A DNA stretch of 64,000 nucleotides from an uncultured bacterium (GCA_964626075.1 CAZVDD010000013.1:31291-95290), one strand, 5' to 3'. Numbered from the stretch's first letter, positions 4,110-60,841 are shown. Notes: generated by a model from the letters alone, not told the origin. A program made the numbers and translations.

Positions 4110-4181
4110 CTCCCGAACACGGCGGGCAATCAGCTGAGTGTACTGCGAACCAAAATCTAAGACTAAAACCCTATCCAGTTG

Positions 4182-4598
4182 CTACTTCTCCCTTCTTACC
4201 GGCGGCAGGGTGTCGCTCGCAAGCAGTTCACAAACCCCCGATGCCTTGCCATAGATTAAAAGACATTTATAATAGATGCTGGCTGCGGACTTAACATCCT
4301 TTGTTGCCCGCCACTTGTTCAGCGTCAGTTTCAGCTCTTCAATCTGCCGCTCCAGGTAACCAAGCCGGCGATTAATTAAAAGCCGCTCAACTATTGAAGA
4401 CGACCTCAGCCGGTTGCGCAGTACCACCGCGCTGCTTTCCAGTTCCGCAACACGGCGCTCAAACACCTGTACCGACTCTGGCGTCACCTCAAAAACCATT
4501 ACCCGGGATTTAATCCTCTGCCGTTGATTCACGTTATACAACAAAAGCCCGAACAAAAACGCCAGCACCAAAAGCAGAAACCAGAAAACTCCCTTCAT
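4182..4598 (-). CDS. Hypothetical membrane-anchored coiled-coil protein (138 aa). Possibly FtsB/FtsL-like.
   Basis: One N-terminal TM helix followed by a heptad-like charged region. No diagnostic motif. Confidence 0.35.
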   Translation of the reverse strand: MKGVFWFLLLVLAFLFGLLLYNVNQRQRIKSRVMVFEVTPESVQVFERRVAELESSAVVLRNRLRSSSIVERLLINRRLGYLERQIEELKLTLNKWRATKDVKSAASIYYKCLLIYGKASGVCELLASDTLPPVRREK

Positions 4599-4608
4599 AA
4601 CAACCTCC

Positions 4609-7071
4609 TTACCTGACTACGATATTTACCACCCGGCCCGGTATCAAAACCACCCGGATTACCTCCTTACCCTCAATATAGGGTAGTACCGCACTGTTTT
4701 CCAGCGCCGCTTTTTTCACCTCCTCCGCACCGCTTGTCCGGCTGACAACCACCTTGCCCCGCAGTTTGCCGTTGACCTGAACCGGAATCTCTATTGTATC
4801 AAAATGCACAAACCGCTCATCCCATTCCGGCATCGGCTCGCAAAATATCGACCCCTTTTCCGGATAAAATCGGTGCCACAACTCCTCACTCAAATGGGGG
4901 GCAAACGGCGCCAGCAGTTTAACAAACCGCACCAGGGCAAACCGGAACACCGGCGACTTTTGGTCCGGGAACAGATACAGTTCATTCAAAAACTCCATCA
5001 GGGCGCTGATTGCGGTGTTGAACTGGAAATTGTCTGCATCGGTTATCACCTTCTTATGGGTTTGGTTCATCCGGATGTAAAGCCTCTTCTCCTCGGCGCT
5101 GAACTTTTCCACCTCAATTTTATCGGGCGGCAGTTGATAACCCGCATCTTCAAACAGTCGCCATACCCGGGCGATAAAACGCTTGACACCGGTGACAAGT
5201 TCATTTGACCATTCGAGCGGCTTCTCGGGCGGTGCGGCAAAGAGCACACCGAGTCGGGCACAATCGGCGCCGTGCTCCTCAACAAACGGTCCAACCCAGA
5301 CCCCGTGCCGTCGGGACGAAGACATCGTCTTACCGTCAAGGGAAACCATCCCCTGGGTGTGCAAAACCCGACAGGGTTCTTTTACCGAAACCATTTCGAG
5401 GTCGTGCAAAACCCGGGTAAAGAACCGAAAGAAAATCAGATGGCCACAGGCGTGCTCAATACCGCCGATGTAGTTGTCAATCGGCAACCACTTGTCCGCG
5501 TTCGCCCGGGAAAAGGGCAGTTGGTCGTTGTGCGGGTCGGTGTAGCGCAGGTGGTACCAGGAAGAATCAACAAAAGTATCCATCGTGTCCGGGTCGCGCT
5601 GGGCCGGACCGCCACATTTCGGGCAGGTGGTGTTGATAAACGACTCCACCCCGGCAAGGACCGATTTGCCCTTGGGCTTGTAATCCTTGACATCAGGCGG
5701 CAAAAGCACCGGCAGCTGTTCATAGGGAACCGGCACAATGCCGCACTGCGGGCAGTGAATCATCGGTATCGGTGTGCCCCAGTAGCGTTGCCGAGAGATG
5801 AGCCAGTCTTTTAACCGGTACTGAACCTTGCGCCGGCCGATATTGCGCCTTTCCAGTTCTTCAATAACCAGTTGAATCCCCTTTTCCGAAGGCGTACCAT
5901 CAAACGGCCCGGAGTTGACCATCACCCCGGGCTCGGTGTATGCGCCCGTCATCTCTTCCGGCACAACCGTTTTGCCTTCCGGCACAATCACCACTTTAAT
6001 CGGGATGTTGTACTTGCGGGCAAACTCAAAGTCCCGCTGGTCATGTCCGGGCACACCCATCACCATTCCGGTCCCATACCCGGCAAGCACAAAGTCCGCA
6101 ACCCAGATTGGTACCATTTCGCCGCTCAACGGGTTGCGGGCAAACCGGCCGGTGAAAATCCCCTGCTTCTCCCTGCCCACTGCCGTGCGCTCAATCTCGG
6201 GCTGGATTAGAATTTGGTGACAGAAATCTGCCACCGCATGCTCCTGCGGTGTACCCCGGGCAATTGTTTCCGCCAGCGGCGCATCCGGCGCCAGCGCCAG
6301 AAATGTCACCCCGTAAAGCGTATCAGGCCTTGTTGTCCAAACCGGCAACCTTGTGCCGTCGTCCATTTGAAAATCAACCTCAACCCCTTCGGACCGACCA
6401 ATCCAGTTCCGCTGCATCACCCGCACACTCTCAGGCCAGCCGGTCAACTCTTCAATTCCGTCCAGCAACTCCTGGGCGTACTCGGTGATTTTGAAAAACC
6501 ACTGCGTCAACTTCTTCTTCTCCACCGGTGCCGCACAACTGGAACGGTAACACCGGCCTTCCACCACCTGCTCATTTGCCAGAACCGTCTGGCAGCGCGG
6601 ACACCAGTTCACATAAGCCTCCTTGCGGTAAACCAGCCCGCGCTCGTAAAACTTCAAAAACAACCACTGATTCCACCGGTAATATTCCGGCAGGCAGGTA
6701 GTAACCTCCCGGTCCCAATCATAACCAATGCCCAGCAATTTAAGGTTATTCTTACACAGCTTAATTGAGTCAAATGTCCAAACCCAGGGCGGTATGTTGT
6801 GCTCAATTGCCGCATTTTCCGCCGGTAAACCGAACGCATCCCAGCCAAACGGATGCAACACATCGTACCCCTGCATCATCTTGAGCCGTGCCACACAGTC
6901 GCCGATGCAGTAATTGCGGGCATGACCCATATGCATATCACCCGAAGGATACAGAAACATCTCTAACACATAGTACTTCTTCTTCGGATTAGGATTCGTT
7001 TTAAAAACCCCTTTTTCCTCCCAGAACCGTTGCCATTTCAACTCAATTTCTCTTGTTGGATAATCACTCAT
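4609..7071 (-). CDS. leuS: Leucine--tRNA ligase (820 aa).
   Basis: Class I aaRS HMGH (HIGH) motif near the N-terminus. KMSSS (KMSKS variant). Bacterial LeuS length and typical N-terminus ..ELKWQRFWEE. Confidence 0.93.
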   Translation of the reverse strand: MSDYPTREIELKWQRFWEEKGVFKTNPNPKKKYYVLEMFLYPSGDMHMGHARNYCIGDCVARLKMMQGYDVLHPFGWDAFGLPAENAAIEHNIPPWVWTFDSIKLCKNNLKLLGIGYDWDREVTTCLPEYYRWNQWLFLKFYERGLVYRKEAYVNWCPRCQTVLANEQVVEGRCYRSSCAAPVEKKKLTQWFFKITEYAQELLDGIEELTGWPESVRVMQRNWIGRSEGVEVDFQMDDGTRLPVWTTRPDTLYGVTFLALAPDAPLAETIARGTPQEHAVADFCHQILIQPEIERTAVGREKQGIFTGRFARNPLSGEMVPIWVADFVLAGYGTGMVMGVPGHDQRDFEFARKYNIPIKVVIVPEGKTVVPEEMTGAYTEPGVMVNSGPFDGTPSEKGIQLVIEELERRNIGRRKVQYRLKDWLISRQRYWGTPIPMIHCPQCGIVPVPYEQLPVLLPPDVKDYKPKGKSVLAGVESFINTTCPKCGGPAQRDPDTMDTFVDSSWYHLRYTDPHNDQLPFSRANADKWLPIDNYIGGIEHACGHLIFFRFFTRVLHDLEMVSVKEPCRVLHTQGMVSLDGKTMSSSRRHGVWVGPFVEEHGADCARLGVLFAAPPEKPLEWSNELVTGVKRFIARVWRLFEDAGYQLPPDKIEVEKFSAEEKRLYIRMNQTHKKVITDADNFQFNTAISALMEFLNELYLFPDQKSPVFRFALVRFVKLLAPFAPHLSEELWHRFYPEKGSIFCEPMPEWDERFVHFDTIEIPVQVNGKLRGKVVVSRTSGAEEVKKAALENSAVLPYIEGKEVIRVVLIPGRVVNIVVR

Positions 7072-24439: not shown

Positions 24440-25795
24440 ATGAACTACCACGCCCATATCCGGATGCGTCCTCATATGCCCCTTCTAATAATCTCACATA
24501 TTGTGCTCCTCACCCTCCCGGCTGCTGCCACTTACTGGCCCATTCCACCGATAAACCAAGTTCACCCCTTAGGAAACAATTGGGGCAACTACCAGAACTA
24601 CGGTTCTTCCCCCTACTTTCACCCCGGAATTGATATCATCACCACGGACACCAGTGGTGTTGAAGTCCGGGCGGTTGCCCACGGCTGGGTCAAAGCCTGG
24701 GGCACGATTCAAGCAGAACTGCACTACCGACTCGCGGTGTGTGATTCGCCTTTAACCTACTCTGGTCGTGCTGAAGGATGGCTTTACGCCCATATTGACC
24801 CTAACCGCTGGCACAAAAACCTTGGTGATGAGGTGCAAGAAGGGGAAGTCATTGGCTATCTTGTCGCCTGGCCCATCGATGCTTCTTTCGACCATCTTCA
24901 CTTTGCCCGCATCTCCGACACCGGCGCCACCTGGCAGCGTTTTCCCCAACCCACCTGGTGGTTTATACAGAATCCATTGACAATTATTCAACCCAATACC
25001 GACCTTGAACCACCGGTATTTGAAAATGCCCGTACCAACGCCCTTTTTGCCTTCTGCCGCAACAATACCTCAACCTACTTAAATCCCAACAACCTCACCG
25101 GTGATGTTGACATCATCGCGAAAATTTACGATCGCACCGGCTTTTCAACCGGTAATTCAACCTGGGATAAACTCGCACCTTTTCTGATTGAATACTCAAT
25201 TAAAAGTGTCGGAGGCTCGATTGTTGTTCCCTGGACCATCGGCGTCATATTTTCCGGCCGTTTGGAAGATGCCCTTGTCTCGGTAGTTTACAAAAACGAC
25301 AACACCTGCCGCTCTCAGGGTGATTACGAAAACCGTTCTTACTACTACATCGTCACCAACACCGATGGTGACAGCATAATTGAATCTACCGACATTCAGG
25401 GAAAATGGGCAACCGCCGAGGTTGGTGACGGCGACTATTGGGTACTCATCCGCGCCTCTGATGTCGTCGGTAACACAACCGTCGACTCAATGCTTGTTCA
25501 CACTGCCAACGGCGTCGCACTTGCCGAACAAAACTCAACCTTTCTCACCGCACCGCTGCGGGCAACACCGGCAAATGGCAACTGGCAAATTGATTTTGGT
25601 ATCTCCCGAGCCGCACCGGTCCGCTTGACGGTCTTTGACCCGACCGGCAGACAAGTCACAATCCTTGCCGAGCAACAGCTCGCACCCGGCAACCATCGTG
25701 TGTCATTCCGACCCTCGGCTTCTGGTGTCTATTTTGTCAACATGACCGTTGGATTTAACCAGACCTACCAGACAAAACTAACCGTAATAAAATAA
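24440..25795 (+). CDS. Secreted M23-family (LytM-like) metallopeptidase with a T9SS-type C-terminal sorting domain (451 aa).
   Basis: HPGIDI and DHLHF (HxxxD ... HxH) zinc-ligand motifs. Signal-peptide-like N-terminus. C-terminal ~70 aa ...VFDPTGRQV..APGNHRVSF..ASGVYFV..KLTVIK matches Por_Secre_tail-type domains. Confidence 0.7.
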   Translation: MNYHAHIRMRPHMPLLIISHIVLLTLPAAATYWPIPPINQVHPLGNNWGNYQNYGSSPYFHPGIDIITTDTSGVEVRAVAHGWVKAWGTIQAELHYRLAVCDSPLTYSGRAEGWLYAHIDPNRWHKNLGDEVQEGEVIGYLVAWPIDASFDHLHFARISDTGATWQRFPQPTWWFIQNPLTIIQPNTDLEPPVFENARTNALFAFCRNNTSTYLNPNNLTGDVDIIAKIYDRTGFSTGNSTWDKLAPFLIEYSIKSVGGSIVVPWTIGVIFSGRLEDALVSVVYKNDNTCRSQGDYENRSYYYIVTNTDGDSIIESTDIQGKWATAEVGDGDYWVLIRASDVVGNTTVDSMLVHTANGVALAEQNSTFLTAPLRATPANGNWQIDFGISRAAPVRLTVFDPTGRQVTILAEQQLAPGNHRVSFRPSASGVYFVNMTVGFNQTYQTKLTVIK

Positions 25796-41896: not shown

Positions 41897-42613
41897 CTAT
41901 TCAAAAATCCGTTCCACCGCCTGGTCTTCAACCCAGCCGCCTATACCACCCGGAATCTGAATCAACACAAACCCGGGCCGGCGCTCAACAATCTTGACCT
42001 CCAACCCATCGTGCACCGCGGCGATCTCCTTGTACTCTTCACCCGGTCCGGAGCGTAAAATCGCCTCAGCCACCACCACCACCGCCTTTGCCCGATTGAC
42101 CATACCTTGCCAGATTAGCGCCCCGGCACCAAAGTAGAGAAAAACAACTGTTAACCCGATTGCCCCATAACCCAAAAACTTTTTGCCCGTGCTCAGATAG
42201 AGCCCGAGACAAAGCGCCAGGACGAAAAACAAAAACCCGGCAAGAAAACGGGTTGTCAATCGGTCAAACGGTGTCAGGAGATTACGCACCGTTGTTGTCA
42301 ACGGGCTTTCCGGATTGGGATTTTTATCCGGTCGGAAGTTGCGCACAAAGGCGATGTTGCTCGTTATGTCCGGGTCGTGCGGCTTGAGCGCCCAGGCACG
42401 GAGATAGTCCGCGAGCGCCCTGCCCAACCTACCTAACTTGAAATGGGTATTGCCCCGATTGTAATAAATCTCCACCGCCGCGGCCTCCTGCGCCGCCGAG
42501 TCGTAAAGGACAATGGCATCTTCAAACCGTCCTGCCTCGTAAAGTTTGTTTGCCCGTTCCAACTGTTCAACCGGTAGTGCAAACACCAATATCAGCGTCG
42601 CAAGTAAACTCAT
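41897..42613 (-). CDS. batE: BatE-like TPR plus SH3b-domain protein (238 aa).
   Basis: N-terminal TPR, central TM, C-terminal SH3-like region. Terminal position in the Bat operon. Confidence 0.55.
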   Translation of the reverse strand: MSLLATLILVFALPVEQLERANKLYEAGRFEDAIVLYDSAAQEAAAVEIYYNRGNTHFKLGRLGRALADYLRAWALKPHDPDITSNIAFVRNFRPDKNPNPESPLTTTVRNLLTPFDRLTTRFLAGFLFFVLALCLGLYLSTGKKFLGYGAIGLTVVFLYFGAGALIWQGMVNRAKAVVVVAEAILRSGPGEEYKEIAAVHDGLEVKIVERRPGFVLIQIPGGIGGWVEDQAVERIFE

Positions 42614-44367
42614 ATCTTTTTGACAACTCCGCGTGCCTTTTGTAAAACCGCCCGCGGGTTACAGTCGCTCATCCCGGGCGAAAACCGGGCAAGGGCACAA
42701 AGCTGCACCGTGTCCAGCAAATCCTGCACCGCTCCCGCATCGGCGCCCTGTCGGGTCAACGCATCTTTTATCTCCGCACCGGTCAAAGCACCGGTTTCAA
42801 TGTTGAACCGGTCCCCAGCATAAGAAAGTAACGCCTGATACACCAGACTGTAAAAGTCGGCAATCCGGTTTGCGCCCAGCGCTTTTTCCGCCTGTTTCAA
42901 CCGGCGGGTTGCAACCTTCCGCGCATTACTGCGGCGGGCATAACCCGGGTCAAGTTGCAACTTGCGCCGCCGGACACCAAACCCGATGCCGAACGCCATC
43001 ACAACCAGCCCCACTATGTAAAACAACTTAAACCAGGATTCATAACCCGCCAACCGGTTACCGGTCAAGCGCAGTTCGGTCTTGATATGCCTGATGTCCG
43101 TACCCAGAACCCTCATTCCGGTCGCGGTCGTATAATCCTCCCCGCTTCTTGCCGGCACACCGAGAGCGACAAACTCCAAAGGCGGCGTCTTTCTTATGTA
43201 GTAACTACCCGTATTCGGGTCAAAGAAACCAATCTCAACCTCCGGAATCCGGAATTTACCGTCGGCCAGCGGCAAAAGTGGATATTCAAACCGCCTTGTA
43301 CCCTTGAGCCCGCCGCTGGCGTAATTGCAATCGTCCTTTGTCTCCGGGCTCAAGACCTTCAAACCGGTAATCGCCGGCAGAGTTGGCGCACCAATTAAAC
43401 CAAGGTTACCGGTTCCGGTGATAACAAGCGAAAGCATAACCGGTTCACCACCCTTTGCCGTTTCCGGCACCACCCGGGCACTAACCTGAAACGAACCAAC
43501 ACCACCGGTGAACGATGTTGGTCTTCCTGTTTCGGGCAGCGCCTTTACCTCAACCGTCACCTCTTCCGAATTAACCTCAAACGGCTTAGCGGTTGAGAAG
43601 AAAAACCCCGGCGCCACCATCTCACCGGCAAGGCTCATCTTGCCAATCTTCAACTGCCCGGCACGGGTGGGAAACAGCGCGGTCTTTCGCACCACCGCGC
43701 CGAACATCTGCCTGCCCCGATAGTTTCGCCTTTCATAATTCAGTTTTTGCGGTTGATAAACCTCTTGAGTCCAGAAACCGCTCAGGGGCGGCGGCTCTTT
43801 GATATTCAAACTTACCACCTGCCCTGTGGTGTAAAATGTCCAGGTTGCGGTTACCATCTCACCCTGATAAACCGTTTTTCGGTCCACGCTCACATCAAGA
43901 AAAACCTCGCCTCGGGCCGGTTCCGGCTCTTCAAAGATATCAAAGGGGCTGCGCTGGGGTTGCGAGCGCTTTGTCTGAGTCCCGGTTTTTGTCACCTTAA
44001 CCGTTATTGGTTCGGTTGTGTACTCCGTCCCGTTGTAGTTCAACCGGCAGGGTCCGATTACCAGCTCGCCGGTCTTTTTCGGAATCAGGGTGTAGATAAA
44101 ACTGATTGTCTGCTCCTGAGTCACCCGGCCCTGAACAATTGAAATACTTGTTGACTGTGACTGGCTACTGCCGACATTGTCAAACCCGGCCAGTTCGGGC
44201 AACTGCGGCTTCGGCACCCGGCCTACATTCGTTCCGCTTACCTGAACAATCAACTGCAACGGCTCACCCAGCCCAACCGTCATCCGGTCAACCTCGGCAG
44301 TAAACCGCAACTCACCCCCGGTCGCGAGGGCCAAAAACAAACCAAAGGTCGCAATCCAGCGCCGCAT
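42610..44367 (-). CDS. batD: BatD (oxygen tolerance) protein (~585 aa).
   Basis: Signal peptide plus a large beta-rich extracytoplasmic domain, C-terminal TM and basic tail. Start reassigned to the ATG at 44367, which is TAAGATG-coupled to the batB/C stop. Confidence 0.6.
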   Translation of the reverse strand: MRRWIATFGLFLALATGGELRFTAEVDRMTVGLGEPLQLIVQVSGTNVGRVPKPQLPELAGFDNVGSSQSQSTSISIVQGRVTQEQTISFIYTLIPKKTGELVIGPCRLNYNGTEYTTEPITVKVTKTGTQTKRSQPQRSPFDIFEEPEPARGEVFLDVSVDRKTVYQGEMVTATWTFYTTGQVVSLNIKEPPPLSGFWTQEVYQPQKLNYERRNYRGRQMFGAVVRKTALFPTRAGQLKIGKMSLAGEMVAPGFFFSTAKPFEVNSEEVTVEVKALPETGRPTSFTGGVGSFQVSARVVPETAKGGEPVMLSLVITGTGNLGLIGAPTLPAITGLKVLSPETKDDCNYASGGLKGTRRFEYPLLPLADGKFRIPEVEIGFFDPNTGSYYIRKTPPLEFVALGVPARSGEDYTTATGMRVLGTDIRHIKTELRLTGNRLAGYESWFKLFYIVGLVVMAFGIGFGVRRRKLQLDPGYARRSNARKVATRRLKQAEKALGANRIADFYSLVYQALLSYAGDRFNIETGALTGAEIKDALTRQGADAGAVQDLLDTVQLCALARFSPGMSDCNPRAVLQKARGVVKKI

Positions 44368-44368
44368 C

Positions 44369-46030
44369 TTACCAGTCCTTTTCCACCTGACGCCTTGCCC
44401 GGGGCTTGCGCACATCCTTCTGAACCTGGCGCTCCTTGTTTTCCACCGCCTGCAAAACCCGCTCCGCCTCATCCTTCGCCATTCCCGATTGCCCCTGATA
44501 TTCTGGCGCCCGCGGCTGTTCTTGTTGCCTTCCTCCTGATTGCTGCTGCTGGCTCTGACTGGAATCTGGCGCCTGCTTCATTTCTTCCTTTCTCTTCAAA
44601 CAGAACTCTAAATTCTCCTTTGCCTGTCGGTCGTTCGGATTGGAGAGCAAAGCCATTTTATAAGAATTAATCGCCTCATCCAGTTTCCCCATCCGATAAA
44701 AACTGTTACCCAGATTGTAAAAGGCGTTACTGCGTTTGCGCTGATTTCTGTCCACCGTTGCCAGCGAAAGCTCTTTGATTGCCTCATCAAATTTACCCAG
44801 CCGATAGTAGGTGTTGCCGATATTGTAGTGAATCGCCAGGGCATCGGGCTCCAGCACCTCAGCCCGTTGATAAAAACTGAGCGCCTCCTGATACTTGCCC
44901 CGCCGGAACAAACCATTGCCCGCCCGCAACAAATTGGGCACATCGCCGTTTGCCGTTTGCACAACAACAAGAGAAACAACAAACCCGACCAGCGCTGCCC
45001 GCCGCCGATTAGAAGTGAATCGCCCCTTAATAAAGGGGCTCAGCGGGTTGCGGACCGCCGGTAAAGCAAGGCTAAAGAACAGCAGCAAAATGCCCGTCAA
45101 CAAAAAAACTTGATACCGCTCCACATAGTTAGAAAAACTGCCCCCACTCAACTCCTCTTTTTCCAGCCGGTCAAACTCTCCGGCCAGTTTCGGTGCCGAA
45201 AACCCCTCCATTCGATAAAAACGGCCGCCGGTTGCCTGCGCGATAAGAATCAACTTGCGTTCATCCATCCTTGAAATCACCACCTGCCCAGCACGGTCTT
45301 TTTTGTAAACCACACCCCCTTCTTTTCTTTCCGGAATTGGCGCCCCCTCCGCACTGCTGAACGCCACCGGATAAATCCGCACCCCCAGTTCCTTCGCCAC
45401 CTGCACCGCCTGTTCAGTCTGGGTTCCGAGGTCCTCGCCATCGGTGATTAAAACGAGCGCCCTGCTACCCGGTGCAGTACTCCTAAACAGTTCACTCGCT
45501 TTCCGAATCGCCTTGCCGTAATCGGTGCCCGGCACCGGCATCAAATCCGGGCTGATGATGTCAAGGAACAGTTTTGCCGCCTCGATATCGGTTGTCAGCG
45601 GGCATAGGATATGAGCATCACCGGCAAAGGCGACAATGCCCACCGCGTTACCGGTAAGTTCATCAAGCAAAGCGGCGACTTCGGTCCGGGCGCGCTCAAG
45701 CCGGTTCGGCTTGACATCCTCGGCAAGCATCGACTTTGAGGCGTCAAGGGCAATCACCACCGCCACACCCCGACTCTTAAACATCTGTAATCTCTCGCCC
45801 CATCTCGGTCGCGCCAGCGCAACGACCATCAGCCCGAGCCCGAGAACCAAGAGCATCAGTTTCACCCATTCAAGAAAAGGCGCGCGGCTGGGTTCAATCC
45901 GGGCAAGCAACTGCGGTTCAATAAAACGGGTAACCCGTTTTCGGTCCCGATTTCGGACAACGATAAAAAACACCATGATTACCGGCAGGGCAAGCAGAAG
46001 ATACAGTATGCGCGGTGCGCCCCAGTGCAT
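44369..46030 (-). CDS. batB: BatB/BatC fusion: von Willebrand factor A domain plus TPR repeats (553 aa).
   Basis: N-terminal TM, VWA MIDAS motif VIALDASKSM, C-terminal TPR repeats, then a Q-rich tail. Confidence 0.65.
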   Translation of the reverse strand: MHWGAPRILYLLLALPVIMVFFIVVRNRDRKRVTRFIEPQLLARIEPSRAPFLEWVKLMLLVLGLGLMVVALARPRWGERLQMFKSRGVAVVIALDASKSMLAEDVKPNRLERARTEVAALLDELTGNAVGIVAFAGDAHILCPLTTDIEAAKLFLDIISPDLMPVPGTDYGKAIRKASELFRSTAPGSRALVLITDGEDLGTQTEQAVQVAKELGVRIYPVAFSSAEGAPIPERKEGGVVYKKDRAGQVVISRMDERKLILIAQATGGRFYRMEGFSAPKLAGEFDRLEKEELSGGSFSNYVERYQVFLLTGILLLFFSLALPAVRNPLSPFIKGRFTSNRRRAALVGFVVSLVVVQTANGDVPNLLRAGNGLFRRGKYQEALSFYQRAEVLEPDALAIHYNIGNTYYRLGKFDEAIKELSLATVDRNQRKRSNAFYNLGNSFYRMGKLDEAINSYKMALLSNPNDRQAKENLEFCLKRKEEMKQAPDSSQSQQQQSGGRQQEQPRAPEYQGQSGMAKDEAERVLQAVENKERQVQKDVRKPRARRQVEKDW

Positions 46031-47010
46031 TACACCAGCCTCCGGTTGATAACCATCCCAAAACTAAATCCGGCAAATGTAAATATCAAGCCGAGAAGTA
46101 ACGGCAGCGCCATCCGCTCCTGATACAGCGTATAACGCCGGGCTTTAAAGGTCGAAGGTTCCAGCCGGTCAATCTCTTCATAAACCCGCTTCAGCGCCTC
46201 CGGGTCGGTGGCAAGAAAGAACTTGCCACCGGTAATCGCGGCAATCTTCTCCAGCGTCTCGGTGTCAAGGTCAACCTCCACCTGAACATACCGCCTGCCA
46301 AAGAGCGGGTCGTCAACCGGAAACGGTACCGGACCCTTACTGCCAACCCCAATCGTGTAAATCTTAATACCCAGCGCCGCTGCCGCCTGCGCTGCGGTCA
46401 AAGGGTCGATATCGCCCGTGTTGTTGCGGCCATCGGTCAAGAGGATAATCACCTTTTCCCGCGCCTTCGACCCCTTGAGCCGCGCCGCGGCACTGGCGAT
46501 GCCCATTCCAATTGCGGTGCCATCTTCCAGCGTGCCAAACTCCACCCGGTCCAAGATGTCGTTGACAATACTATGGTTCAGCGTCAAGGGACACTGGGTT
46601 AAACTGGTTGCGGCAAAAATCACCAGGCCGATGCGGTCCCCGGTTCGGCGGTTGACAAACTCCTTTGCCCGCTCCTTAGCAACGGTGAGGCGGTCTTTGG
46701 GCAGAAAGTCTGCCGCCTGCATCGTACCCGAAATGTCCAGACAGAGCATAATGTCAATCCCCCGGGTCTCCAGTTCCTCAAACATCCGTCCCTTTTGCGG
46801 TCGCGCCAGCGCCAGCGTGGAAAACACCAGCGCCAGCGAATAACAGAAAAGGGGCAACTGCGTCAGCACCTGCTCGAAAACCGTCGGTGCCGGCAGCAGG
46901 GTCGTGTCACTAAACTGCAGGCAACTGCGCCGGCGCTGGCGCTCCCACCACCACAAAATTGGCACCAGCGCCAGAAGTGCCAGATAACCCGGATGCGCCA
47001 GATGCCACAT
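46030..47010 (-). CDS. batA: BatA: von Willebrand factor A domain membrane protein (326 aa).
   Basis: Two N-terminal TM helices. VWA MIDAS DIMLCLDISGTM. Confidence 0.7.
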   Translation of the reverse strand: MWHLAHPGYLALLALVPILWWWERQRRRSCLQFSDTTLLPAPTVFEQVLTQLPLFCYSLALVFSTLALARPQKGRMFEELETRGIDIMLCLDISGTMQAADFLPKDRLTVAKERAKEFVNRRTGDRIGLVIFAATSLTQCPLTLNHSIVNDILDRVEFGTLEDGTAIGMGIASAAARLKGSKAREKVIILLTDGRNNTGDIDPLTAAQAAAALGIKIYTIGVGSKGPVPFPVDDPLFGRRYVQVEVDLDTETLEKIAAITGGKFFLATDPEALKRVYEEIDRLEPSTFKARRYTLYQERMALPLLLGLIFTFAGFSFGMVINRRLV

Positions 47011-47013
47011 CGC

Positions 47014-48126
47014 CTAACCTCCGCTTTGCACCGACGTGTTACCACGCGCCCCTGCACCGTTGCTGCCGGTCGATTCCGGCGCCGGCATCGTCAGTTCCAC
47101 CAGTTGCCGTGCCTGAACCACCACCTCTTGCGGCTTATCCGGAATATGCTTGGCATACTTCACCCGGTCGGTTTCAAAAAAGAACAACCGGAACCGTTCA
47201 ACTTCCGGCACCTTCCGCTGCCGCAACTCCCGCAGAATCTCGCTCGTTGTCTGGTCAATTGCGGGAAACCCAAAACGCCGGGTCAAGTACCGCTTCACAA
47301 TCTCCGATATTGTGTAGTAATACCGCTTCACCTGGCCATTGCCCAACAACTCTTCAACCGGCACCTGTTCCAGCGCCCTTAACGCCTCCTCCCAGGGTGA
47401 AAGCAAGGGTGCCAACTCAGCCTGTTTCTGCCGGAAACGCCTCAACAGCCGGTAACCCCAATACCCGCCTGCAACTAATACCAGCGCGCCGAGCAACACC
47501 CAGAGCGGCATTAGATTGGGAAACTCCACCTGGGGTTTGATGTCGTTGATGTCCTGCATCCGTTCGTTAATTAAACTCAGCACCCTCACCGGCAGTGAAT
47601 CGCTCGCCGCGGCACACAACCCGCTTCCATCCTGATAGGTCACGAGAAAGGGCGGCAGTTTTCGCTCGCCCACTGTCCACAAAACCAGCGTCAGATTGTA
47701 AACATCAAAGGCGGTGTCGCCCCGGAAGTGAATCTGATGTCTCTGCTCACTGACGGTAAAATCGTCGCCCTTTTCCACAAACGGTGGCGAAACGGTCAAA
47801 TTGCGCGGATGGGAAACTGTCACCGCCACCTTTAACCGGTCGCCAATCGTCAAGGCTTTGCCTTTTTTCTCTGTAACCCGCACCGCGACCCGCACCGGTC
47901 CATCTTGAACCAGACGATAAGGTCGAGGGGGCGTTGTGTCTGCCAGACTGTCCGCCTGAGCCCATAGTAGCCCAAAAAGCAACCCTAACGCCAAAACTAT
48001 CCCGGCCGCTTTTCTTTTTCTCTCTCCTTGTCTGACCTTCCCTTGATGGAAAAAGACAAAGCGGAGGTTGCCCGCTTCCACCCTGCCGCGCTTCTGCTCT
48101 GCTGTCCTGCGCCGCATTTCCCTCAC
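47014..48126 (-). CDS. Bat-operon membrane protein of unknown function (~370 aa; start GTG 48126 or ATG 48117).
   Basis: Signal/TM helix, periplasmic domain, second TM, cytoplasmic C-terminus. Conserved position between DUF58 and batA. Confidence 0.5.
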   Translation of the reverse strand: MREMRRRTAEQKRGRVEAGNLRFVFFHQGKVRQGERKRKAAGIVLALGLLFGLLWAQADSLADTTPPRPYRLVQDGPVRVAVRVTEKKGKALTIGDRLKVAVTVSHPRNLTVSPPFVEKGDDFTVSEQRHQIHFRGDTAFDVYNLTLVLWTVGERKLPPFLVTYQDGSGLCAAASDSLPVRVLSLINERMQDINDIKPQVEFPNLMPLWVLLGALVLVAGGYWGYRLLRRFRQKQAELAPLLSPWEEALRALEQVPVEELLGNGQVKRYYYTISEIVKRYLTRRFGFPAIDQTTSEILRELRQRKVPEVERFRLFFFETDRVKYAKHIPDKPQEVVVQARQLVELTMPAPESTGSNGAGARGNTSVQSGG

Positions 48127-49025
48127 CGATAACGCCGTGCCCGTTCCTGAAAGAACCGATGTAGCTTCGGGGTAAACGGTTCGTCGGTTAAAAGGGAAAT
48201 ATGGTCCACCCCGAGCCGCTGAAACAACCGGCTCAATGCCTCCTGCTGCCGCTCCGTTCTCTGCCGGAACTCATCCTGAACCCGCCGGGCACTCGTGTTC
48301 ACCAGAACCCGTTTGCCCGTTTCCGCATCAACAAACTCCCGCAACCCCAGCGCCGGCAGATTCAGCTCTGCCCGGTCATTGATGCTCAACACCACCAGAT
48401 CGTGCTGCCGGCTCATAATCGAAAGTGGCTTCTCAAACTCGGCACCGACAAAACCCGGACCGAGCAAATCCGACACCAGAAACACAATCGCCCGGCGTTT
48501 AAGGATGTGCAAAACAAACTCCAGTGCTGTGCCCGGTGCTGTTCCCAAACCTTCCGGCTGAAAGTAGAGGATGTCTCGTACCAGGCGTAACACCTGCGTC
48601 CGTCCCTTTGATGGGGGCACAAAGTGCTCAATCCGGTCGGTAAAAAATACCAGCCCCACCTTGTCGTTGTTCTTAATTGCCGAAAACGCCAGTGTCGCGC
48701 TCACCAGCGCCGCCTGCTCAATCTTCAACGCCCCCCTTGTGCCAAACCGATTGGAACCCGAAGCGTCCACCACCAGCATTACCAGAAGTTCCCGCTCCTC
48801 GGCAAACAACTTGACAAACGGCTTGCCAAACCTTGCGGTCAAGCGCCAGTCAATCGTCCGCACATCGTCGCCCACCTGATATTCCCTGGTGTCGGCAAAC
48901 TCCACCCCGCGCCCCTTGAAACTCGACCGGTAATCACCGGCAAACACCGTGTTAACCAAACGCCGGGTGCGAATCTCAATCTGCCGGATTTGGGAAAGTT
49001 CCCGTCGCAGTGTCACCGTCCGCAT
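48123..49025 (-). CDS. DUF58 domain protein (300 aa).
   Basis: DWRLTARFGKPFVK..VVDASGS motif of the DUF58 family. Always paired with MoxR. Confidence 0.75.
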   Translation of the reverse strand: MRTVTLRRELSQIRQIEIRTRRLVNTVFAGDYRSSFKGRGVEFADTREYQVGDDVRTIDWRLTARFGKPFVKLFAEERELLVMLVVDASGSNRFGTRGALKIEQAALVSATLAFSAIKNNDKVGLVFFTDRIEHFVPPSKGRTQVLRLVRDILYFQPEGLGTAPGTALEFVLHILKRRAIVFLVSDLLGPGFVGAEFEKPLSIMSRQHDLVVLSINDRAELNLPALGLREFVDAETGKRVLVNTSARRVQDEFRQRTERQQEALSRLFQRLGVDHISLLTDEPFTPKLHRFFQERARRYR

Positions 49026-49030
49026 CGTCT

Positions 49031-50032
49031 TTACGGCACCTCCACCCCTTCCAGCACGCGCCGGATGATATCATCAGTTGTCAACTCCTCCGCCTCTGCC
49101 TCGTAAGTCAAAATCAGCCGATGCCGCAGCACATCGTAGGCGAGTTCCTTGATATCCTCCGGAATCACAAAACCCCGGCGCCTTAAAAACGCCATCGCCC
49201 GACTCGCCGTCAACAGATAAATTGACGCCCGCGGTGAAGCGCCATAGCGAATCAGCGGCACCAGGTCGGCAAGATTGTGCTCCCTGGGAAACCGGGTCGC
49301 AAACACCAAATTAACGATGTAATCCTTCAACTTTTCATCAACATAGATACGGGTACACAACTCCCGGGCCCGCAGTATCGTTGCGCTGTCAACCACCGGC
49401 GTCACCTTCGGCTCAACCCCTTTTGTCATCCGCTCAACAATCTGTTTCTCCTCTTCCTTTGAAGGATAACTCACCCGCAGTTTCAGCAAAAACCGGTCAG
49501 TCTGCGCCTCCGGCAAGGGATAGGTCCCCTCCTGCTCAATCGGGTTCTGGGTCGCCAGAACCAGAAACGGCTCCTCCAGCCGAAAGGTCTCTTCCCCAAT
49601 CGTCACCTGCCGTTCCTGCATCGCCTCGAGCAGCGCGCTCTGCACCTTAGGTGGTGCCCGGTTGATTTCATCCGCCAGGACAAAATTGGCAAAAATCGGC
49701 CCCTTGCGCGCGGTAAACTCGCCGGTGCGTTGATTGTAAATCTGCGTGCCGATGATGTCGGCGGGCAAAAGGTCGGGCGTAAACTGAATCCGCTGAAACC
49801 GGGCGCTGATTGCACCGGCAAGCGCCTTCACCGCATAGGTCTTTGCCAGTCCGGGCACGCCCTCAATCAAAATGTGCCCGTTTGCTAAAAGCCCGATGAG
49901 CAGCCTCTCAATCAAATACTTCTGCCCGACAATCACCTTGCCGACCTCAGCGGTCAGCGCCTGAACAAACACACTCTCTCTTTCTATCTCCTCATGAATC
50001 CGTCTGATATCATCCTGCTGTAACTCGCTCAT
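49031..50032 (-). CDS. moxR: MoxR-family AAA+ ATPase (333 aa).
   Basis: Walker A GVPGLAKT. MoxR-typical ..RIQFTPDLLPADI.G. Walker B ADEINRA. Confidence 0.88.
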   Translation of the reverse strand: MSELQQDDIRRIHEEIERESVFVQALTAEVGKVIVGQKYLIERLLIGLLANGHILIEGVPGLAKTYAVKALAGAISARFQRIQFTPDLLPADIIGTQIYNQRTGEFTARKGPIFANFVLADEINRAPPKVQSALLEAMQERQVTIGEETFRLEEPFLVLATQNPIEQEGTYPLPEAQTDRFLLKLRVSYPSKEEEKQIVERMTKGVEPKVTPVVDSATILRARELCTRIYVDEKLKDYIVNLVFATRFPREHNLADLVPLIRYGASPRASIYLLTASRAMAFLRRRGFVIPEDIKELAYDVLRHRLILTYEAEAEELTTDDIIRRVLEGVEVP

Positions 50033-57993: not shown

Positions 57994-58022
57994 TTGACCG
58001 TTTATGGATTTTCCGGTATTAT
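57994..58022 (+). promoter_or_regulatory. Leaderless-type promoter (TTGACC, 17 nt, TATTAT, 7 nt, ATG at 58030).
   Basis: Read directly. Supports the 58030 start rather than the ORF-track 57937. Confidence 0.5.
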
Positions 58023-58029
58023 AATTAAA

Positions 58030-59529
58030 ATGCGGTCTCTATTGAGGCTGAAAACGATTGGCGCCGGGCTTTTCGCGCTCCTCACCTTATCTGTCGCCGG
58101 GGTGAGAACTACAACCGACACCCTGCCACCACCGATTATCAACCGCCACTCTTTTGAACTTCTGCTCAACAGCCGGTACTCGGTGCATAGCGGTTTTGAA
58201 GACAGCCTTCCTGAACAAATCCTTGCCAATGTGCTCTGGGCAATGGCACGCGTGCCCTGCTCGGGCTCTTATCGGGAGTTCTATGTTGCCACCCGAGAAA
58301 ATGTGTATCGCTATCAGCCGGCAACACGCTCTTTGACCGTGCACCTTGCCGGTGACCATCGCTACTACTCCGGCTCGGCTTTTGAGATTGGCATCGCCAC
58401 ACCCCGGCACGAAGACGCCGGCATGGCGATTCAGGCGGGATTGATTGCCGCCACCGCTTTCCGGGATGAAACCGGCGGCAACGTTGTCTGCTGCCCAATG
58501 AAATGGGCGGCGGATTACGCCAACAGCAACTGGCACCCAGACCACCCGATAATGCTGGTCAATCTGTTTGGCAACGCACCGGCAAGGCATCTGGACTCAA
58601 CCCGGGCGGCACTCTCTTCTGACTCCAGTTTGCCCGCCCCCATTACCAAAGGGACCGACACCTTTGAACTGGCACTGATGGAGTTAACCCAGGATTCGCT
58701 CTTTTCGTCCGGTAACCTTTCGATCGAAACCGTTTCCCAGTTACTCTGGGCAGGTTATGGTGTTACCCCGCACACCACATCCAACAACCGTCAGGGTTTA
58801 ACCGTACCCAGTGCGGTCGCCGGCTACTTCCTAACCGGGAAAATTTACCTCGTCCGGGAAGAAGGTATTGAACGGTATCACAACCGGCTACCGCCGGGTA
58901 CCAACCTTACTACGCGCGACCATCGGCTGGAACGGGTTTTGAGCGGCGACCGCCGTGCCGATTTGCGACAAGCGGTAAGCCGGATCCCTTCAACCGCTCC
59001 TGCCTACATCGTTGTCTGTGTTGACGACACCTCCTCTTATCGGACAATGGCAGAGGTGGGGTTTGTTGCCTTCAACCTTTTGATGCAGGCACATATCCTC
59101 GGCCTCTCCGCTTTCCTAACAATGCCCCTGACCCCAAGCGAAAGAAGCGCCATTCAGAACGCCCTGCTTTTGCCCTCAAACCATTATCCCGCACTGGTGT
59201 TTTCGGTTGGTGGCACCGCGGTTGGCATCCGGGAACGCCGCGCCCGAACCGGAACCGTTCAAATTGTCCGTGCCCAGCCTGCGGTGCGGCATGGTTATCT
59301 GCGTATCGAATATCTCCTGCATCAATCCGGTATGGTGCGCGCCGAGGTTTTTGACCTCGTTGGCAGACCGGTACGCACCCTGTTTGAAGAGCGCCAGACC
59401 CCGGGTTACCATTCAATCGTGTGGGATGGCACCGATGAAAACGGTCGTGTCGTACGCCGCGGCACCTATCTTATCGCCATCTCAGCGAACGGTTTCGTGG
59501 CCCAACACAAGGTCAACTGGGCGAAGTAA
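58030..59529 (+). CDS. Secreted protein with two tandem SagB-type nitroreductase-like domains and a T9SS-type C-terminal sorting domain (499 aa).
   Basis: Signal peptide MRSLLRLKTIGAGLFALLTLSVAG. Two repeats of the SagB-like pattern (NRHSFE..LWAMARVP..FYVATRENVYRYQP..L / LWAGYGVT..R..PSA..YFLTGKIYLV..YHNRLP). The C-terminus VFDLVGRPV..TPGYHSIVWDGTDENGRVV..GTYLI..HKV is Por_Secre_tail-like. Confidence 0.6.
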   Translation: MRSLLRLKTIGAGLFALLTLSVAGVRTTTDTLPPPIINRHSFELLLNSRYSVHSGFEDSLPEQILANVLWAMARVPCSGSYREFYVATRENVYRYQPATRSLTVHLAGDHRYYSGSAFEIGIATPRHEDAGMAIQAGLIAATAFRDETGGNVVCCPMKWAADYANSNWHPDHPIMLVNLFGNAPARHLDSTRAALSSDSSLPAPITKGTDTFELALMELTQDSLFSSGNLSIETVSQLLWAGYGVTPHTTSNNRQGLTVPSAVAGYFLTGKIYLVREEGIERYHNRLPPGTNLTTRDHRLERVLSGDRRADLRQAVSRIPSTAPAYIVVCVDDTSSYRTMAEVGFVAFNLLMQAHILGLSAFLTMPLTPSERSAIQNALLLPSNHYPALVFSVGGTAVGIRERRARTGTVQIVRAQPAVRHGYLRIEYLLHQSGMVRAEVFDLVGRPVRTLFEERQTPGYHSIVWDGTDENGRVVRRGTYLIAISANGFVAQHKVNWAK

Positions 59530-59616: not shown

Positions 59617-60375
59617 ATGTCTGGCCATTCTAAATGGGCAACAATTAAGCATAAGAAGAGTAAGGCGGATGCTGCCCGGGGGCGCGCATTTTCCAAATTG
59701 ATTCGGGAAATCACCACTGCCGCCCGCATCGGTGGTGGCGACATTGAAGCCAACCCCCGTCTGCGTAGCGCAGTTGAAGCCGCAAAAGCAATCAATATGC
59801 CCGCCGAGAACATCGAACGGGCGATTAAACGGGGTACCGGTGAACTTCCGGGCGTAACTTATGAAGAGATTTTTTATGAAGGTTATGCACCAGGAGGCGT
59901 CGCGCTCCTTGTACGGGTTTTAACCGACAACAAAAACCGCACCACCGCAGAAATCCGCCATGTGTTTGACAAGTACGGCGGTTCGATGGGCGCTGCCGGT
60001 TGCGTTGCCTGGCAGTTTAAGCCCAAAGGGCTAATCGTGATTGAAAAAGGTAAGACGGACGAGGACACTGTCTTGTCGGTCGCGCTCGAAGCCGGTGCCG
60101 ACGATGTTCAAACAGATTCTGCCGGCTACACCGTGGTCACTTCAGTGGAAAACTTTGAAGGGGTAAAGCGGCAGTTGAAGGCTGCGGGCATCGAATGGCT
60201 CAACGCCGAACTTACCCAGGTGGCAACCAACACCGTGCCCGTTTCGGAAGCCGATGCGCCCAAAGTTTTGAAACTGATTGAGATGCTTGAAGAGCTGGAA
60301 GAAGTCCAGCAGGTTTATGCCAACTTCGACATCCCGGACGAGGTCCTCGAAAGAGTATCATCTGCCGGGAGTTAA
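59617..60375 (+). CDS. yebC: YebC/PmpR-family transcriptional regulator (252 aa).
   Basis: N-terminus MSGHSKWATIKHKK and overall family conservation. Confidence 0.9.
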   Translation: MSGHSKWATIKHKKSKADAARGRAFSKLIREITTAARIGGGDIEANPRLRSAVEAAKAINMPAENIERAIKRGTGELPGVTYEEIFYEGYAPGGVALLVRVLTDNKNRTTAEIRHVFDKYGGSMGAAGCVAWQFKPKGLIVIEKGKTDEDTVLSVALEAGADDVQTDSAGYTVVTSVENFEGVKRQLKAAGIEWLNAELTQVATNTVPVSEADAPKVLKLIEMLEELEEVQQVYANFDIPDEVLERVSSAGS

Positions 60376-60841
60376 ATTTAACCGCATCATCGGCATTGAC
60401 CCGGGGTTGAGTGCCACCGGGTTCGGTGTCCTGGAAAAGGGTAAGGTGCTCGGTTTTGGAGTGATAAGGACCGATGCTCGGGTACCAGTAGCCCAACGGC
60501 TTGCCCAACTGGGAAACGAACTGGAACAGGTTTTGAACCGGTTTAAACCTTCCTGCTGCGCAATAGAAACCCTTTTCTTTAAAAACGGTGGCGCGCGCAG
60601 TGTCATTCTCTCTGCCCAATCGCGCGGGGTGCTTATGTTCATATTAGCCCAAAAGAAAATCCCGATTTTTGAACTCACCCCCGCAACGATAAAACTGGCG
60701 ATAACCGGCTCGGGCCGGGCATCAAAGACCCAGTTGAACTTTATGGTACGGAAGGTGTTAAAGATTACCGGTGCGGTTCAGGAGCATGCCGCGGATGCGC
60801 TTGCGGTTGCCTACTGCCTTCAAAATCGACAGCCACGGTGA
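60317..60841 (+). CDS. ruvC: Crossover junction endodeoxyribonuclease RuvC. The start is uncertain: ATG 60317 would give a 26 aa extension overlapping yebC by 59 nt, and no canonical start lies nearer the IIGIDPG motif.
   Basis: IIGIDPGLSATGFGV catalytic motif and C-terminal HAADALAVA. ATGA/GTGA coupling to ruvA. Confidence 0.8.
   Translation: MPTSTSRTRSSKEYHLPGVKFNRIIGIDPGLSATGFGVLEKGKVLGFGVIRTDARVPVAQRLAQLGNELEQVLNRFKPSCCAIETLFFKNGGARSVILSAQSRGVLMFILAQKKIPIFELTPATIKLAITGSGRASKTQLNFMVRKVLKITGAVQEHAADALAVAYCLQNRQPR

What the first reader, a model, noticed from the sequence alone, without database searches (positions are those of the whole stretch)
58030..59529. Secreted tandem SagB-type nitroreductase-like protein with a T9SS-type sorting domain
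Two consecutive SagB/ThcOx-like dehydrogenase (nitroreductase-fold) domains follow a signal peptide and end in a Por_Secre_tail-type domain. SagB-type enzymes are cytoplasmic FMN dehydrogenases that partner with YcaO cyclodehydratases. An exported, duplicated version with no YcaO or precursor-peptide neighbour is not a described architecture. It may be a pseudo-enzyme scaffold or an extracellular redox protein. The leaderless promoter fixes the start at 58030.
Basis: partly seen in the sequence, partly recalled or inferred. Interest (0 to 1): 0.6.

Follow-up and report, generated by a model that had tools for sequence, protein, structure and literature searches.

The report
Exported tandem SagB-like flavoprotein, WOR-3
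This gene encodes an exported protein made of two fused nitroreductase-type domains with a surface-sorting tail; it is real and conserved across the uncultured WOR-3 phylum, its parts are all known kinds, and its substrate is unknown.

Summary

More than 470 orthologues exist, almost all in candidate division WOR-3. They have no YcaO and no conserved neighbour. A TTGAC-17-TAnnnT promoter sits 6-7 nt before the ATG in most loci, which supports a leaderless start at 58030.

The claim that the architecture is undescribed is only partly right:
- Fused nitroreductase pseudo-dimers are solved (3EO7, Acg).
- The closest single-domain relatives (BF3017/3HOI, BT_0217/8CQS) belong to a large exported SagB/ThcOx-like clade. 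Some members carry Tat signals.
- Remote tandem relatives carry Por_Secre_tail, dockerin, PKD or MYXO-CTERM modules.

The motifs are asymmetric. The N half keeps RxSxH and has lost TAPSAG; the C half is the reverse. This predicts one composite FMN site.

It fails the TIGR03605 cut-off, so it is SagB-like but not a SagB member. The most likely function is a stand-alone extracytoplasmic FMN dehydrogenase/oxidase. FMN binding, surface location and T9SS machinery in WOR-3 are all untested.

The parts
57994..58022 (+). Sigma-70-like promoter: TTGACC (57994-57999), 17-nt spacer, TATTAT (58017-58022). It ends 7 nt before the ATG, so the transcript is predicted to be leaderless. No Shine-Dalgarno sequence is present.
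   Evidence: The promoter scan scores 10 of 12. A TAnnnT hexamer lies 5-10 nt before the ATG in 35 of 47 family loci, usually preceded by TTGAC. SD-like sequence is present in only 4 of 47. No transcription start site was mapped.
58030..59529 (+). Complete coding sequence, 499 aa plus stop codon.
   Evidence: There are >470 homologues of ~500 aa at 53-92% identity. The AF2 model has pLDDT 90.4.
58030..58101 (+). Predicted Sec-type signal peptide, MRSLLRLKTIGAGLFALLTLSVAG (residues 1-24). The cleavage site is approximate and there is no twin-arginine motif.
   Evidence: The segment has low pLDDT and a helical 4-23 stretch. Every family member has a non-conserved hydrophobic N-terminus before the conserved E[ST]LPxP. 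This is inferred from sequence features; no SignalP run was possible.
58117..58614 (+). N-terminal nitroreductase-fold domain (residues 30-195). It is diverged and shortened, keeps the FMN-phosphate-type motif, and has lost the TAPSAG loop (here PCSG, residues 76-79).
58174..58188 (+). R49-Y-S51-V-H53, the counterpart of the canonical RRSxR FMN-binding motif. R49, S51 and H53 are invariant in 48 sequences.
   Evidence: Invariant columns are listed. Alignment to the canonical motif is shown. The role of RRSxR in BmdC is taken from PMC8795117. FMN binding here is inferred.
58489..58497 (+). C154-C155-P156. C155 and P156 are invariant, and the Cys is kept in remote tandem relatives (SCP/CCP). By colinearity it lies on the strand after the central helix of the N half, where other nitroreductases approach flavin N5. 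This placement is a low-confidence inference.
   Evidence: Invariant columns. Sequences of remote relatives. The position is extrapolated beyond the end of the hhalign alignment and was not checked on coordinates.
58615..59220 (+). C-terminal nitroreductase-fold domain (residues 196-397). It is closer to canonical SagB/ThcOx-like domains, but the RxSxR motif is replaced by L219/Q221/S223.
   Evidence: PF00881 matches 232-394. The HMM of exported single-domain proteins hits 200-395 at E 3.3e-28. TIGR03605 gives only 18.1 bits.
58801..58815 (+). T258-V-P260-S-A262, the retained counterpart of the TAPSAG loop. In BmdC this loop, from the second protomer, gives backbone contacts to FMN. It is predicted to complete the single site together with R49/S51/H53.
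   Evidence: for conservation and alignment. PMC8795117 for the role of residues 182-186 of the second protomer. Inferred.
59221..59256 (+). Flexible linker (residues ~398-409).
   Evidence: pLDDT falls to 61 for residues 401-410. The columns are poorly conserved.
59257..59526 (+). C-terminal Ig-like beta-sandwich domain (residues ~410-499) of the FlgD_ig / T9SS type A sorting kind, ending at the last residue of the protein.

Best explanation
The gene encodes an extracytoplasmic flavoprotein-type enzyme built as a single-chain pseudo-dimer.

Export (inferred). A Sec-type signal peptide takes it across the inner membrane. A C-terminal Ig-like domain of the T9SS type A / FlgD_ig kind most likely directs it to, or holds it at, the cell surface.

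Core (shown). The core is two fused SagB/ThcOx-like nitroreductase-fold domains that pack like the two subunits of an ordinary nitroreductase dimer.

Active site (inferred). Only one of the two interface sites is intact. The N half supplies the phosphate/ring-binding motif R49-x-S51-x-H53. The C half supplies the T258-V-P-S-A262 loop. The reciprocal motifs of the second site are both lost. The protein is therefore predicted to bind one FMN.

Function (inferred). It most likely acts on its own as a dehydrogenase/oxidase on a small extracellular or periplasmic substrate. It does not need cytoplasmic NAD(P)H and has no YcaO partner.

Expression (inferred). It is transcribed from its own promoter as a leaderless mRNA.
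For: Fold and fusion.
- AF2 model pLDDT 90.4.
- Both halves match an HMM of exported SagB-like proteins.

Single composite site.
- R49, S51, H53, P260 are invariant and T258, V259, A262 nearly invariant.
- Of 20 tandem proteins aligned to the canonical model, the C half keeps a TxPSA-type loop in nearly all and lacks full RxSxR in all except P0186. Wherever the N half aligned over the motif (14 proteins), it keeps Rx[S/C]x[H/R]. Its TAPSAG loop is degenerate in all except P0186, although P0122 keeps a partial RVPS.
- P0186, a recent duplication, keeps both motifs in both halves.
- In BmdC, RRSxR comes from one protomer and backbone residues 182-186 from the other; their spacing matches TAPSAG (PMC8795117).

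Export and cofactor.
- Signal-peptide features are present in all members.
- BF3017, deposited as 'FMN-dependent nitroreductase' (3HOI), has a Sec signal peptide.
- Relatives P0219 and P0213 pass the TAT_signal cut-off, and P0133 is borderline. Tat export implies folding, usually with cofactor, before export.

Surface targeting.
- Remote tandem relatives carry Por_Secre_tail, Dockerin_1, PKD or MYXO-CTERM modules.

Stand-alone gene. Neighbours differ between loci and none is YcaO.

Leaderless start.
Against: - No experiment or cofactor-aware model shows FMN binding.
- I could not inspect model coordinates. The site assignment rests on motif alignment plus one published structure of a relative.
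- The signal peptide is Sec-type, not Tat, so FMN would have to be acquired after export.
- H53 replaces the Arg that contacts flavin N1/O2 in BmdC.
- Por_Secre_tail models do not hit this particular sequence.
- T9SS components were not found in the 64-kb window and were not searched for in any WOR-3 genome.
- NCBI taxonomy places WOR-3 (Caldifarciminota) outside a named FCB group.
- No substrate clue comes from gene context.
Confidence: 0.55

Rival explanations
1. Cofactor-less pseudo-enzyme. The tandem nitroreductase fold is kept as a rigid exported scaffold or ligand-binding module with no flavin and no catalysis.
For: - Sec rather than Tat signal.
- One of the two sites is clearly dead: L219/Q221/S223 and PCSG.
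- The second Arg of RxSxR is His.
- TIGR03605 gives only 18 bits.
- The family has no invariant Lys.
Against: - R49/S51/H53 and the TVPSA loop are strictly conserved across >50% sequence divergence, and similar motifs persist in remote lineages.
- The complementary pattern of retention is what a single functional FMN site predicts. It is not what free decay predicts.
- The Sec-exported BF3017 was deposited as FMN-dependent.
Confidence: 0.25
2. Surface flavin-binding protein. It captures or presents FMN/riboflavin at the cell surface for uptake or as an electron shuttle holder, and does not transform a substrate.
For: - One conserved flavin-type site.
- Surface-anchoring modules of several kinds in relatives.
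- No redox-partner genes nearby.
Against: - There is no linked transporter gene.
- Residues beyond the flavin motifs are also invariant (C155, E119, E128, D297-H298-R299, D333-T334), which suggests a substrate pocket.
- I know of no precedent for a nitroreductase fold in this role.
Confidence: 0.1
3. A true SagB-type azoline dehydrogenase of a RiPP pathway whose YcaO and precursor genes lie elsewhere in the genome.
For: The nearest folds include ThcOx, BmdC and McbC. TIGR03605 gives weak hits in 19 of 48 members.
Against: - It fails the TIGR03605 cut-off.
- It is exported, whereas RiPP maturation with YcaO is cytoplasmic.
- No YcaO lies beside it in any of the loci examined.
- It is conserved as a single housekeeping-like gene throughout a phylum, often in two copies.
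Confidence: 0.03
4. Annotation or assembly artefact, such as a chimeric ORF or a false signal peptide.
For: None found.
Against: - Hundreds of full-length orthologues from independent assemblies.
- Uniform GC across the region.
- Conserved synteny in eight loci.
- A confident single-chain model.
Confidence: 0.01

Closest known systems
Ava_2154 of Anabaena variabilis (PDB 3EO7), an uncharacterised structural-genomics 'putative nitroreductase'
   Different: It has no detectable sequence similarity to the family profile (absent). No FlgD_ig/T9SS-type tail matched. Its function is unpublished. I could not check whether it has a signal peptide.
BF3017 (PDB 3HOI) and BT_0217 (PDB 8CQS), Bacteroides 'SagB/ThcOx family dehydrogenase', with the wider clade of ~220-250-aa exported single-domain proteins
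   Same: - They share the LPxP start, the LWAxxG helix, the TAPSA loop and the GDxR motif.
- They are exported: BF3017 has a Sec signal peptide, and others have lipobox-like or Tat signals.
   Different: They have one domain per chain, so presumably form homodimers with two equal sites. They keep the full RxSxR motif. They have no C-terminal sorting domain.
Azoline/thiazoline oxidases of the SagB type: McbC, ThcOx, BmdC, BcerB
   Different: They are cytoplasmic and work with YcaO cyclodehydratases or NRPS modules, often through RRE domains. They pass TIGR03605. Here TIGR03605 fails, there is no YcaO context, and the protein is exported.
Acg family fused nitroreductases (M. smegmatis MSMEG_5246, PDB 2YMV) and the pseudo-dimeric Ox domain of indigoidine synthetase IndC
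   Same: They are precedents for two nitroreductase domains fused into one chain that replaces the homodimer (PMC8795117).
   Different: They are cytoplasmic, lie on a different sequence branch, and have no sorting domain.
T9SS type A cargo proteins of Bacteroidota
   Same: They have a Sec signal peptide plus a C-terminal ~80-residue beta-sandwich at the very end of the protein, and the same tail occurs on unrelated proteins of the same genome.
   Different: The tail of this sequence scores on FlgD_ig, not on Por_Secre_tail. The host is WOR-3, where T9SS machinery has not been shown here. I found no nitroreductase-fold cargo described in the literature.

Membership tests
Nitroreductase superfamily (PF00881 fold) | Match to the PF00881 profile above the gathering score | tested here: met
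   26.4 bits against a cut-off of 23.5, residues 232-394. 47 of 48 family members match. The N half is not detected by Pfam; it is detected by hhalign at probability 96.8%.
Nitroreductase superfamily (PF00881 fold) | Alpha+beta fold forming an intertwined dimer or pseudo-dimer | tested here: met
   [not shown]
Nitroreductase superfamily (PF00881 fold) | FMN bound at the subunit interface through the RxSxR-type motif | tested here: inconclusive
   The N half has invariant R49-x-S51-x-H53. The C half has L219/Q221/S223. Actual FMN binding cannot be tested with these tools.
SagB-type peptide (azoline) dehydrogenase, TIGR03605 | TIGR03605 score at or above the curated cut-off (78.4 bits) | tested here: not met
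   18.1 bits, E 0.0015. The best E-value among 48 family members is 1.2e-6, and only 19 of 48 match at E <= 0.01. The relative P0219 does pass, at 105 bits.
SagB-type peptide (azoline) dehydrogenase, TIGR03605 | Genomic association with a YcaO cyclodehydratase and a precursor peptide | tested here: not met
   In the window, the gene is flanked upstream by the divergently transcribed Cys_Met_Meta_PP-type gene, ThrC and phosphoglycerate mutase, and downstream by YebC and RuvCAB (Pfam names from the syntenic locus L003). Other loci have different neighbours and no YcaO. Only +/-4-8 kb was examined, not whole genomes.
SagB-type peptide (azoline) dehydrogenase, TIGR03605 | Conserved active-site Tyr (the Lys-Tyr motif as I recall it; Tyr260 in BmdC, PMC8795117) | tested here: inconclusive
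   No Lys is invariant in the family. Y112 is nearly invariant, but its equivalence to the catalytic Tyr could not be checked without model coordinates.
SagB-type peptide (azoline) dehydrogenase, TIGR03605 | Cytoplasmic location alongside the maturation machinery | tested here: not met
   Signal-peptide-like N-terminus in all members. Sorting-type C-terminal domain.
Fused (single-chain pseudo-dimer) nitroreductases | Two nitroreductase-fold domains in one polypeptide that pack as a dimer does | tested here: met
   [not shown]
T9SS type A cargo | N-terminal Sec signal peptide | tested here: met
   Basic N-region plus a hydrophobic core (maximum 10-residue Kyte-Doolittle mean 2.4) before the conserved mature start. 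The same holds in nearly all of the 48 members; the shortest predicted N-termini score lower. This is a heuristic test, not SignalP.
T9SS type A cargo | C-terminal domain matching TIGR04183 / PF18962 | tested here: inconclusive
   This sequence gives no hit even at E <= 10. It matches FlgD_ig instead. 36 of 48 orthologues hit TIGR04183 (best E 4.2e-7) and 16 of 48 hit the PorU CTD region. Relatives P0122 and P0146 pass the cut-off.
T9SS type A cargo | The same tail at the extreme C-terminus of unrelated secreted proteins of the organism | tested here: met
   Window 24440-25795 is M23-peptidase-like, with a weak Por_Secre_tail hit, and is matched by the CTD HMM at E 5.6e-10. Seven further unrelated ORFs in WOR-3 loci carry the domain; it ends 1-4 residues from the stop in the five strong hits.
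T9SS type A cargo | T9SS machinery (SprA/Sov, PorV, PorU, PorK-N) encoded by the organism | not tested
   None among the window ORFs scanned. No WOR-3 genome was searched. No paper in the library links WOR-3 and T9SS.

The most novel reading that the evidence does not exclude
This family, with its remote relatives that carry dockerin, PKD, MYXO-CTERM or T9SS tails, would be an unrecognised class of cell-surface flavoenzymes. Each would be a single-FMN nitroreductase-fold pseudo-dimer doing redox chemistry outside the cytoplasm, for example oxidising or reducing an environmental small molecule. The invariant Cys155 next to the flavin might take part. The class would be a near-universal trait of the uncultured phylum WOR-3.
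Probability: 0.3. Interest if true: 0.65.

Novelty: new variant of a known kind. Interest (0 to 1): 0.45.

Why it matters
Nitroreductase-fold flavoproteins are generally treated as cytoplasmic NAD(P)H-dependent enzymes or as RiPP/NRPS tailoring oxidases. This gene belongs to a large, uncharacterised exported branch.

- The single-domain forms have Sec, lipoprotein-like or Tat signals.
- The tandem forms are attached to lineage-specific surface-sorting modules.

If the predicted single FMN site is real, these proteins are candidates for extracytoplasmic flavin chemistry in anaerobic, uncultured lineages.

The family is also a conserved marker-like gene for WOR-3. It gives a concrete target for biochemistry: one chain, one site, no partner needed.

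If the protein proves to be cofactor-free, it would be a clean example of a nitroreductase pseudo-enzyme kept under strong selection.

Tried and rejected
- Direct hhalign of the N half against the C half gave only E 0.0023, probability 12.6%. On its own this is not convincing. It was replaced by comparing each half with the canonical exported family.
- Sequence search of the PDB did not find 3EO7. Only fold comparison did.
- The AFDB Foldseek library was unavailable.
- The nitroreductase superfamily survey by Akiva et al. 2017 is not held. I therefore could not check whether it records exported or fused SagB-like subgroups.
- Literature searches found nothing relevant. They covered tandem SagB pseudo-dimers, WOR-3 with T9SS or FlgD, nitroreductase T9SS cargo, signal peptides in the superfamily, and the 8CQS entry.
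- A conserved operon partner was looked for and rejected. A PEGA-domain gene follows the gene in two loci but not in the window or most others. Clustering the flanks of 54 loci found no neighbour family shared beyond the closest eight.
- An RiPP/YcaO role was rejected; see the membership table.
- A Tat signal on this protein was rejected because there is no RR motif.
- Horizontal transfer or mis-assembly was rejected.
- Model coordinates are not exposed, so residue distances around the proposed site could not be measured.

Full report
**What is in the sequence.** The ORF runs from the ATG at 58030 to the stop at 59527-59529 and encodes 499 aa. The mechanical ORF list extends it upstream to a TTG at 57937. 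That extension is not supported. The aligned orthologues start with a short variable hydrophobic segment and then the conserved motif E[ST]LPxP. A promoter-like site, TTGACC-17-TATTAT, ends 7 nt before the ATG. GC content matches the neighbours. The flanking genes are housekeeping. Upstream, transcribed divergently, are a Cys_Met_Meta_PP-type enzyme, threonine synthase and a phosphoglycerate mutase. Downstream are YebC, RuvC, RuvA and RuvB (Pfam names from the syntenic locus L003).

**The family.** A search of 5.8 billion proteins found 471 hits at E <= 0.001. The 120 best are all ~480-525 aa, cover 92-100% of the query at 53-92% identity, and are named by their sources, where named at all, as 'nitroreductase family protein', 'FlgD immunoglobulin-like domain containing protein' or 'T9SS type A sorting domain-containing protein' from candidate division WOR-3. 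A scan of GTDB species genomes found 51 loci, almost all in WOR-3 MAGs. About ten genomes hold two paralogues. WOR-3 is now the phylum Caldifarciminota in NCBI taxonomy. A 92% identical orthologue (L007) lies on an independent WOR-3 MAG contig. Eight loci share the window's flanking genes. The region is therefore not mis-assembled.

**Sequence evidence for two domains.**
- Pfam sees only the C half: PF00881, residues 232-394, 26.4 bits against a cut-off of 23.5.
- A direct N-half versus C-half profile comparison is weak, at E 0.0023.
- An exhaustive profile search of 1.84 billion representatives found 1,093 proteins at E <= 0.001. Many are ~220-250-aa single-domain proteins that match the C half.
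- An HMM built from 14 of these hits residues 200-395 at E 3.3e-28 and residues 41-112 at E 1.5e-3.
- hhalign of the N half against them gives probability 96.8%, E 2e-10 over 119 columns.

**SagB-like, but not a SagB member.** TIGR03605 gives 18.1 bits against a cut-off of 78.4. Among 48 family members only 19 match at E <= 0.01, and the best E-value is 1.2e-6. No YcaO or precursor gene lies next to the gene in the window or in any other locus inspected. The family has no invariant lysine. I therefore file it as resembling SagB/ThcOx enzymes, not as a member of that functional family.

**An exported clade already exists.** That is not so for the nearest relatives.
- BF3017, the protein of PDB 3HOI ('FMN-dependent nitroreductase'), is named 'SagB/ThcOx family dehydrogenase' by NCBI. 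It begins MKKLQFLVCFLLLSVASYA-AERTIQLPKP, a classical Sec signal peptide.
- The single-domain relatives retrieved all have hydrophobic N-termini. Some look like lipoprotein signals.
- P0219 and P0213 pass the curated TAT_signal cut-off. P0219 also passes TIGR03605 at 105 bits.
- More remote tandem relatives begin with Tat-like signals: P0133 (HRRTFLK), P0146 and P0128. P0133 is borderline on the TAT_signal model, and the model reports no hit for P0146 or P0128.
- These tandem relatives end in different surface modules: Por_Secre_tail/TIGR04183 (P0122, P0146), Dockerin_1 (P0145, P0153), PKD (P0261) and MYXO-CTERM (P0133).
- Tat signals imply export after folding, which usually means with a bound cofactor.

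**One site, not two.** The BmdC structure paper reports how FMN is held. One protomer supplies Arg145, Arg146 and Ser147 for the phosphate, Arg149 for N1/O2, an Asn and a Gly. The second protomer supplies backbone contacts from residues 182-186 (PMC8795117). The spacing of 182-186 from RRSxR matches the conserved TAPSAG loop of the canonical domain.

I aligned 20 tandem proteins to the canonical model and found a consistent asymmetry:

| Half | RxSxR-type motif | TAPSAG-type loop |
|---|---|---|
| N half | kept as Rx[S/C]x[H/R] wherever it aligned (14 proteins); here R49, S51, H53, all invariant | degenerate; here PCSG |
| C half | full motif lost in all but P0186; here L219, Q221, S223 | kept as a TxPSA-type loop in nearly all; here T258-A262, with P260 invariant |

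- P0122 keeps a partial loop (RVPS) in its N half.
- The only true exception is P0186, a recent duplication that keeps both motifs in both halves.
- Complementary retention is what one composite FMN site at the interface predicts. It is not what general decay predicts.
- This is an inference from alignment plus a published relative. I could not measure distances in the model.

By colinearity, the invariant C155-P156 falls on the strand after the central helix of the N half, near where other nitroreductases approach flavin N5. This is a low-confidence lead.

**How it most likely works.**
- Shown: a conserved, exported-looking, single-chain tandem nitroreductase fold with a sorting-type tail, and no partner genes.
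- Inferred: Sec export; acquisition of one FMN outside the cytoplasm; display at the surface through the tail, or retention in the periplasm if there is no T9SS.
- Inferred: action as a stand-alone dehydrogenase/oxidase. SagB-like enzymes oxidise their substrates without NAD(P)H, which suits an extracytoplasmic location.
- The substrate is unknown.
- The main rival is a cofactor-free pseudo-enzyme. It is favoured by the Sec signal, the Arg-to-His change and the dead second site.

**Leaderless start.** In 35 of 47 family loci a TAnnnT hexamer lies 5-10 nt before the ATG, usually with TTGAC about 17 nt upstream of it. Only 4 of 47 have SD-like sequence. The same arrangement sits at seven gene starts in this window. 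It is therefore a habit of the genome, not a peculiarity of this gene. It supports 58030 as the start.

**Novelty.** Every part is of a known kind, and the gene is already annotated generically in public databases. I found no description of a surface-sorted tandem SagB-like protein, or of the exported clade as such. I rate it a new variant of a known kind, of moderate interest.

Noticed in passing
window gene starts at 104 (+), 24288 (-), 33776 (-), 35060 (+), 41247 (-), 41333 (+), 58030 (+): Seven ORF starts are directly preceded by TTGAC, 16-19 nt, TAnnnT, then 5-8 nt before the start codon, with no room for a Shine-Dalgarno sequence. Leaderless transcription appears common in this genome.
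   Followed up: partly
window 24440-25795 (+): A 451-aa protein with a weak Peptidase_M23 match and a C-terminal domain that matches both Por_Secre_tail (E 1.9e-4) and the CTD HMM of the target family (E 5.6e-10). It is a second candidate sorted protein in the window.
   Followed up: partly
window 41897-50032 (-): A Bat/MoxR-type cluster: MoxR AAA ATPase, DUF58, DUF4381, VWA/BatA, VWA-TPR/BatB-like, BatD, and a TPR-SH3 protein.
   Followed up: no
loci L034, L036, L041, L047, L048 (genes at about 3940-5310, or 631-2007 in L041): Second paralogues of the family in several WOR-3 genomes are ~440-460 aa. They end in a shortened tail (for example ...VYDALGSRVTGARLAPGVYFVR...KVVVTR) that the full CTD HMM misses.
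   Followed up: partly
proteins P0122, P0133, P0145, P0153, P0261 (remote relatives, not in the window): The same tandem core is fused to Kelch repeats plus a T9SS tail, to MYXO-CTERM after a Gly/Ser/Thr-rich linker, to dockerin (at the N- or C-terminal side), or to PKD. This suggests surface display in several phyla.
   Followed up: partly
protein P0186 (510 aa): A tandem of two nearly identical canonical exported SagB-like domains, each with intact RRSxR and TAPSA motifs. It looks like a recent, independent duplication and contrasts with the old asymmetric fusion.
   Followed up: no
L001 9579-10418 and L003 9920-10369: A PEGA-domain protein gene lies directly downstream of the orthologue in two distant loci, but not in the window or most other loci.
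   Followed up: partly
L021 (contig CAYRBO010000094.1, 1620 bp): A 98% identical copy of the gene sits on a 1.6-kb contig binned as 'uncultured Anaerolinea sp.'. This is probably a binning error rather than a transfer.
   Followed up: no
window 60278-60841 (+) against 59617-60375 (+): The mechanical RuvC ORF starts at a TTG that overlaps the end of yebC by about 98 nt. The true ruvC start is probably further downstream.
   Followed up: no
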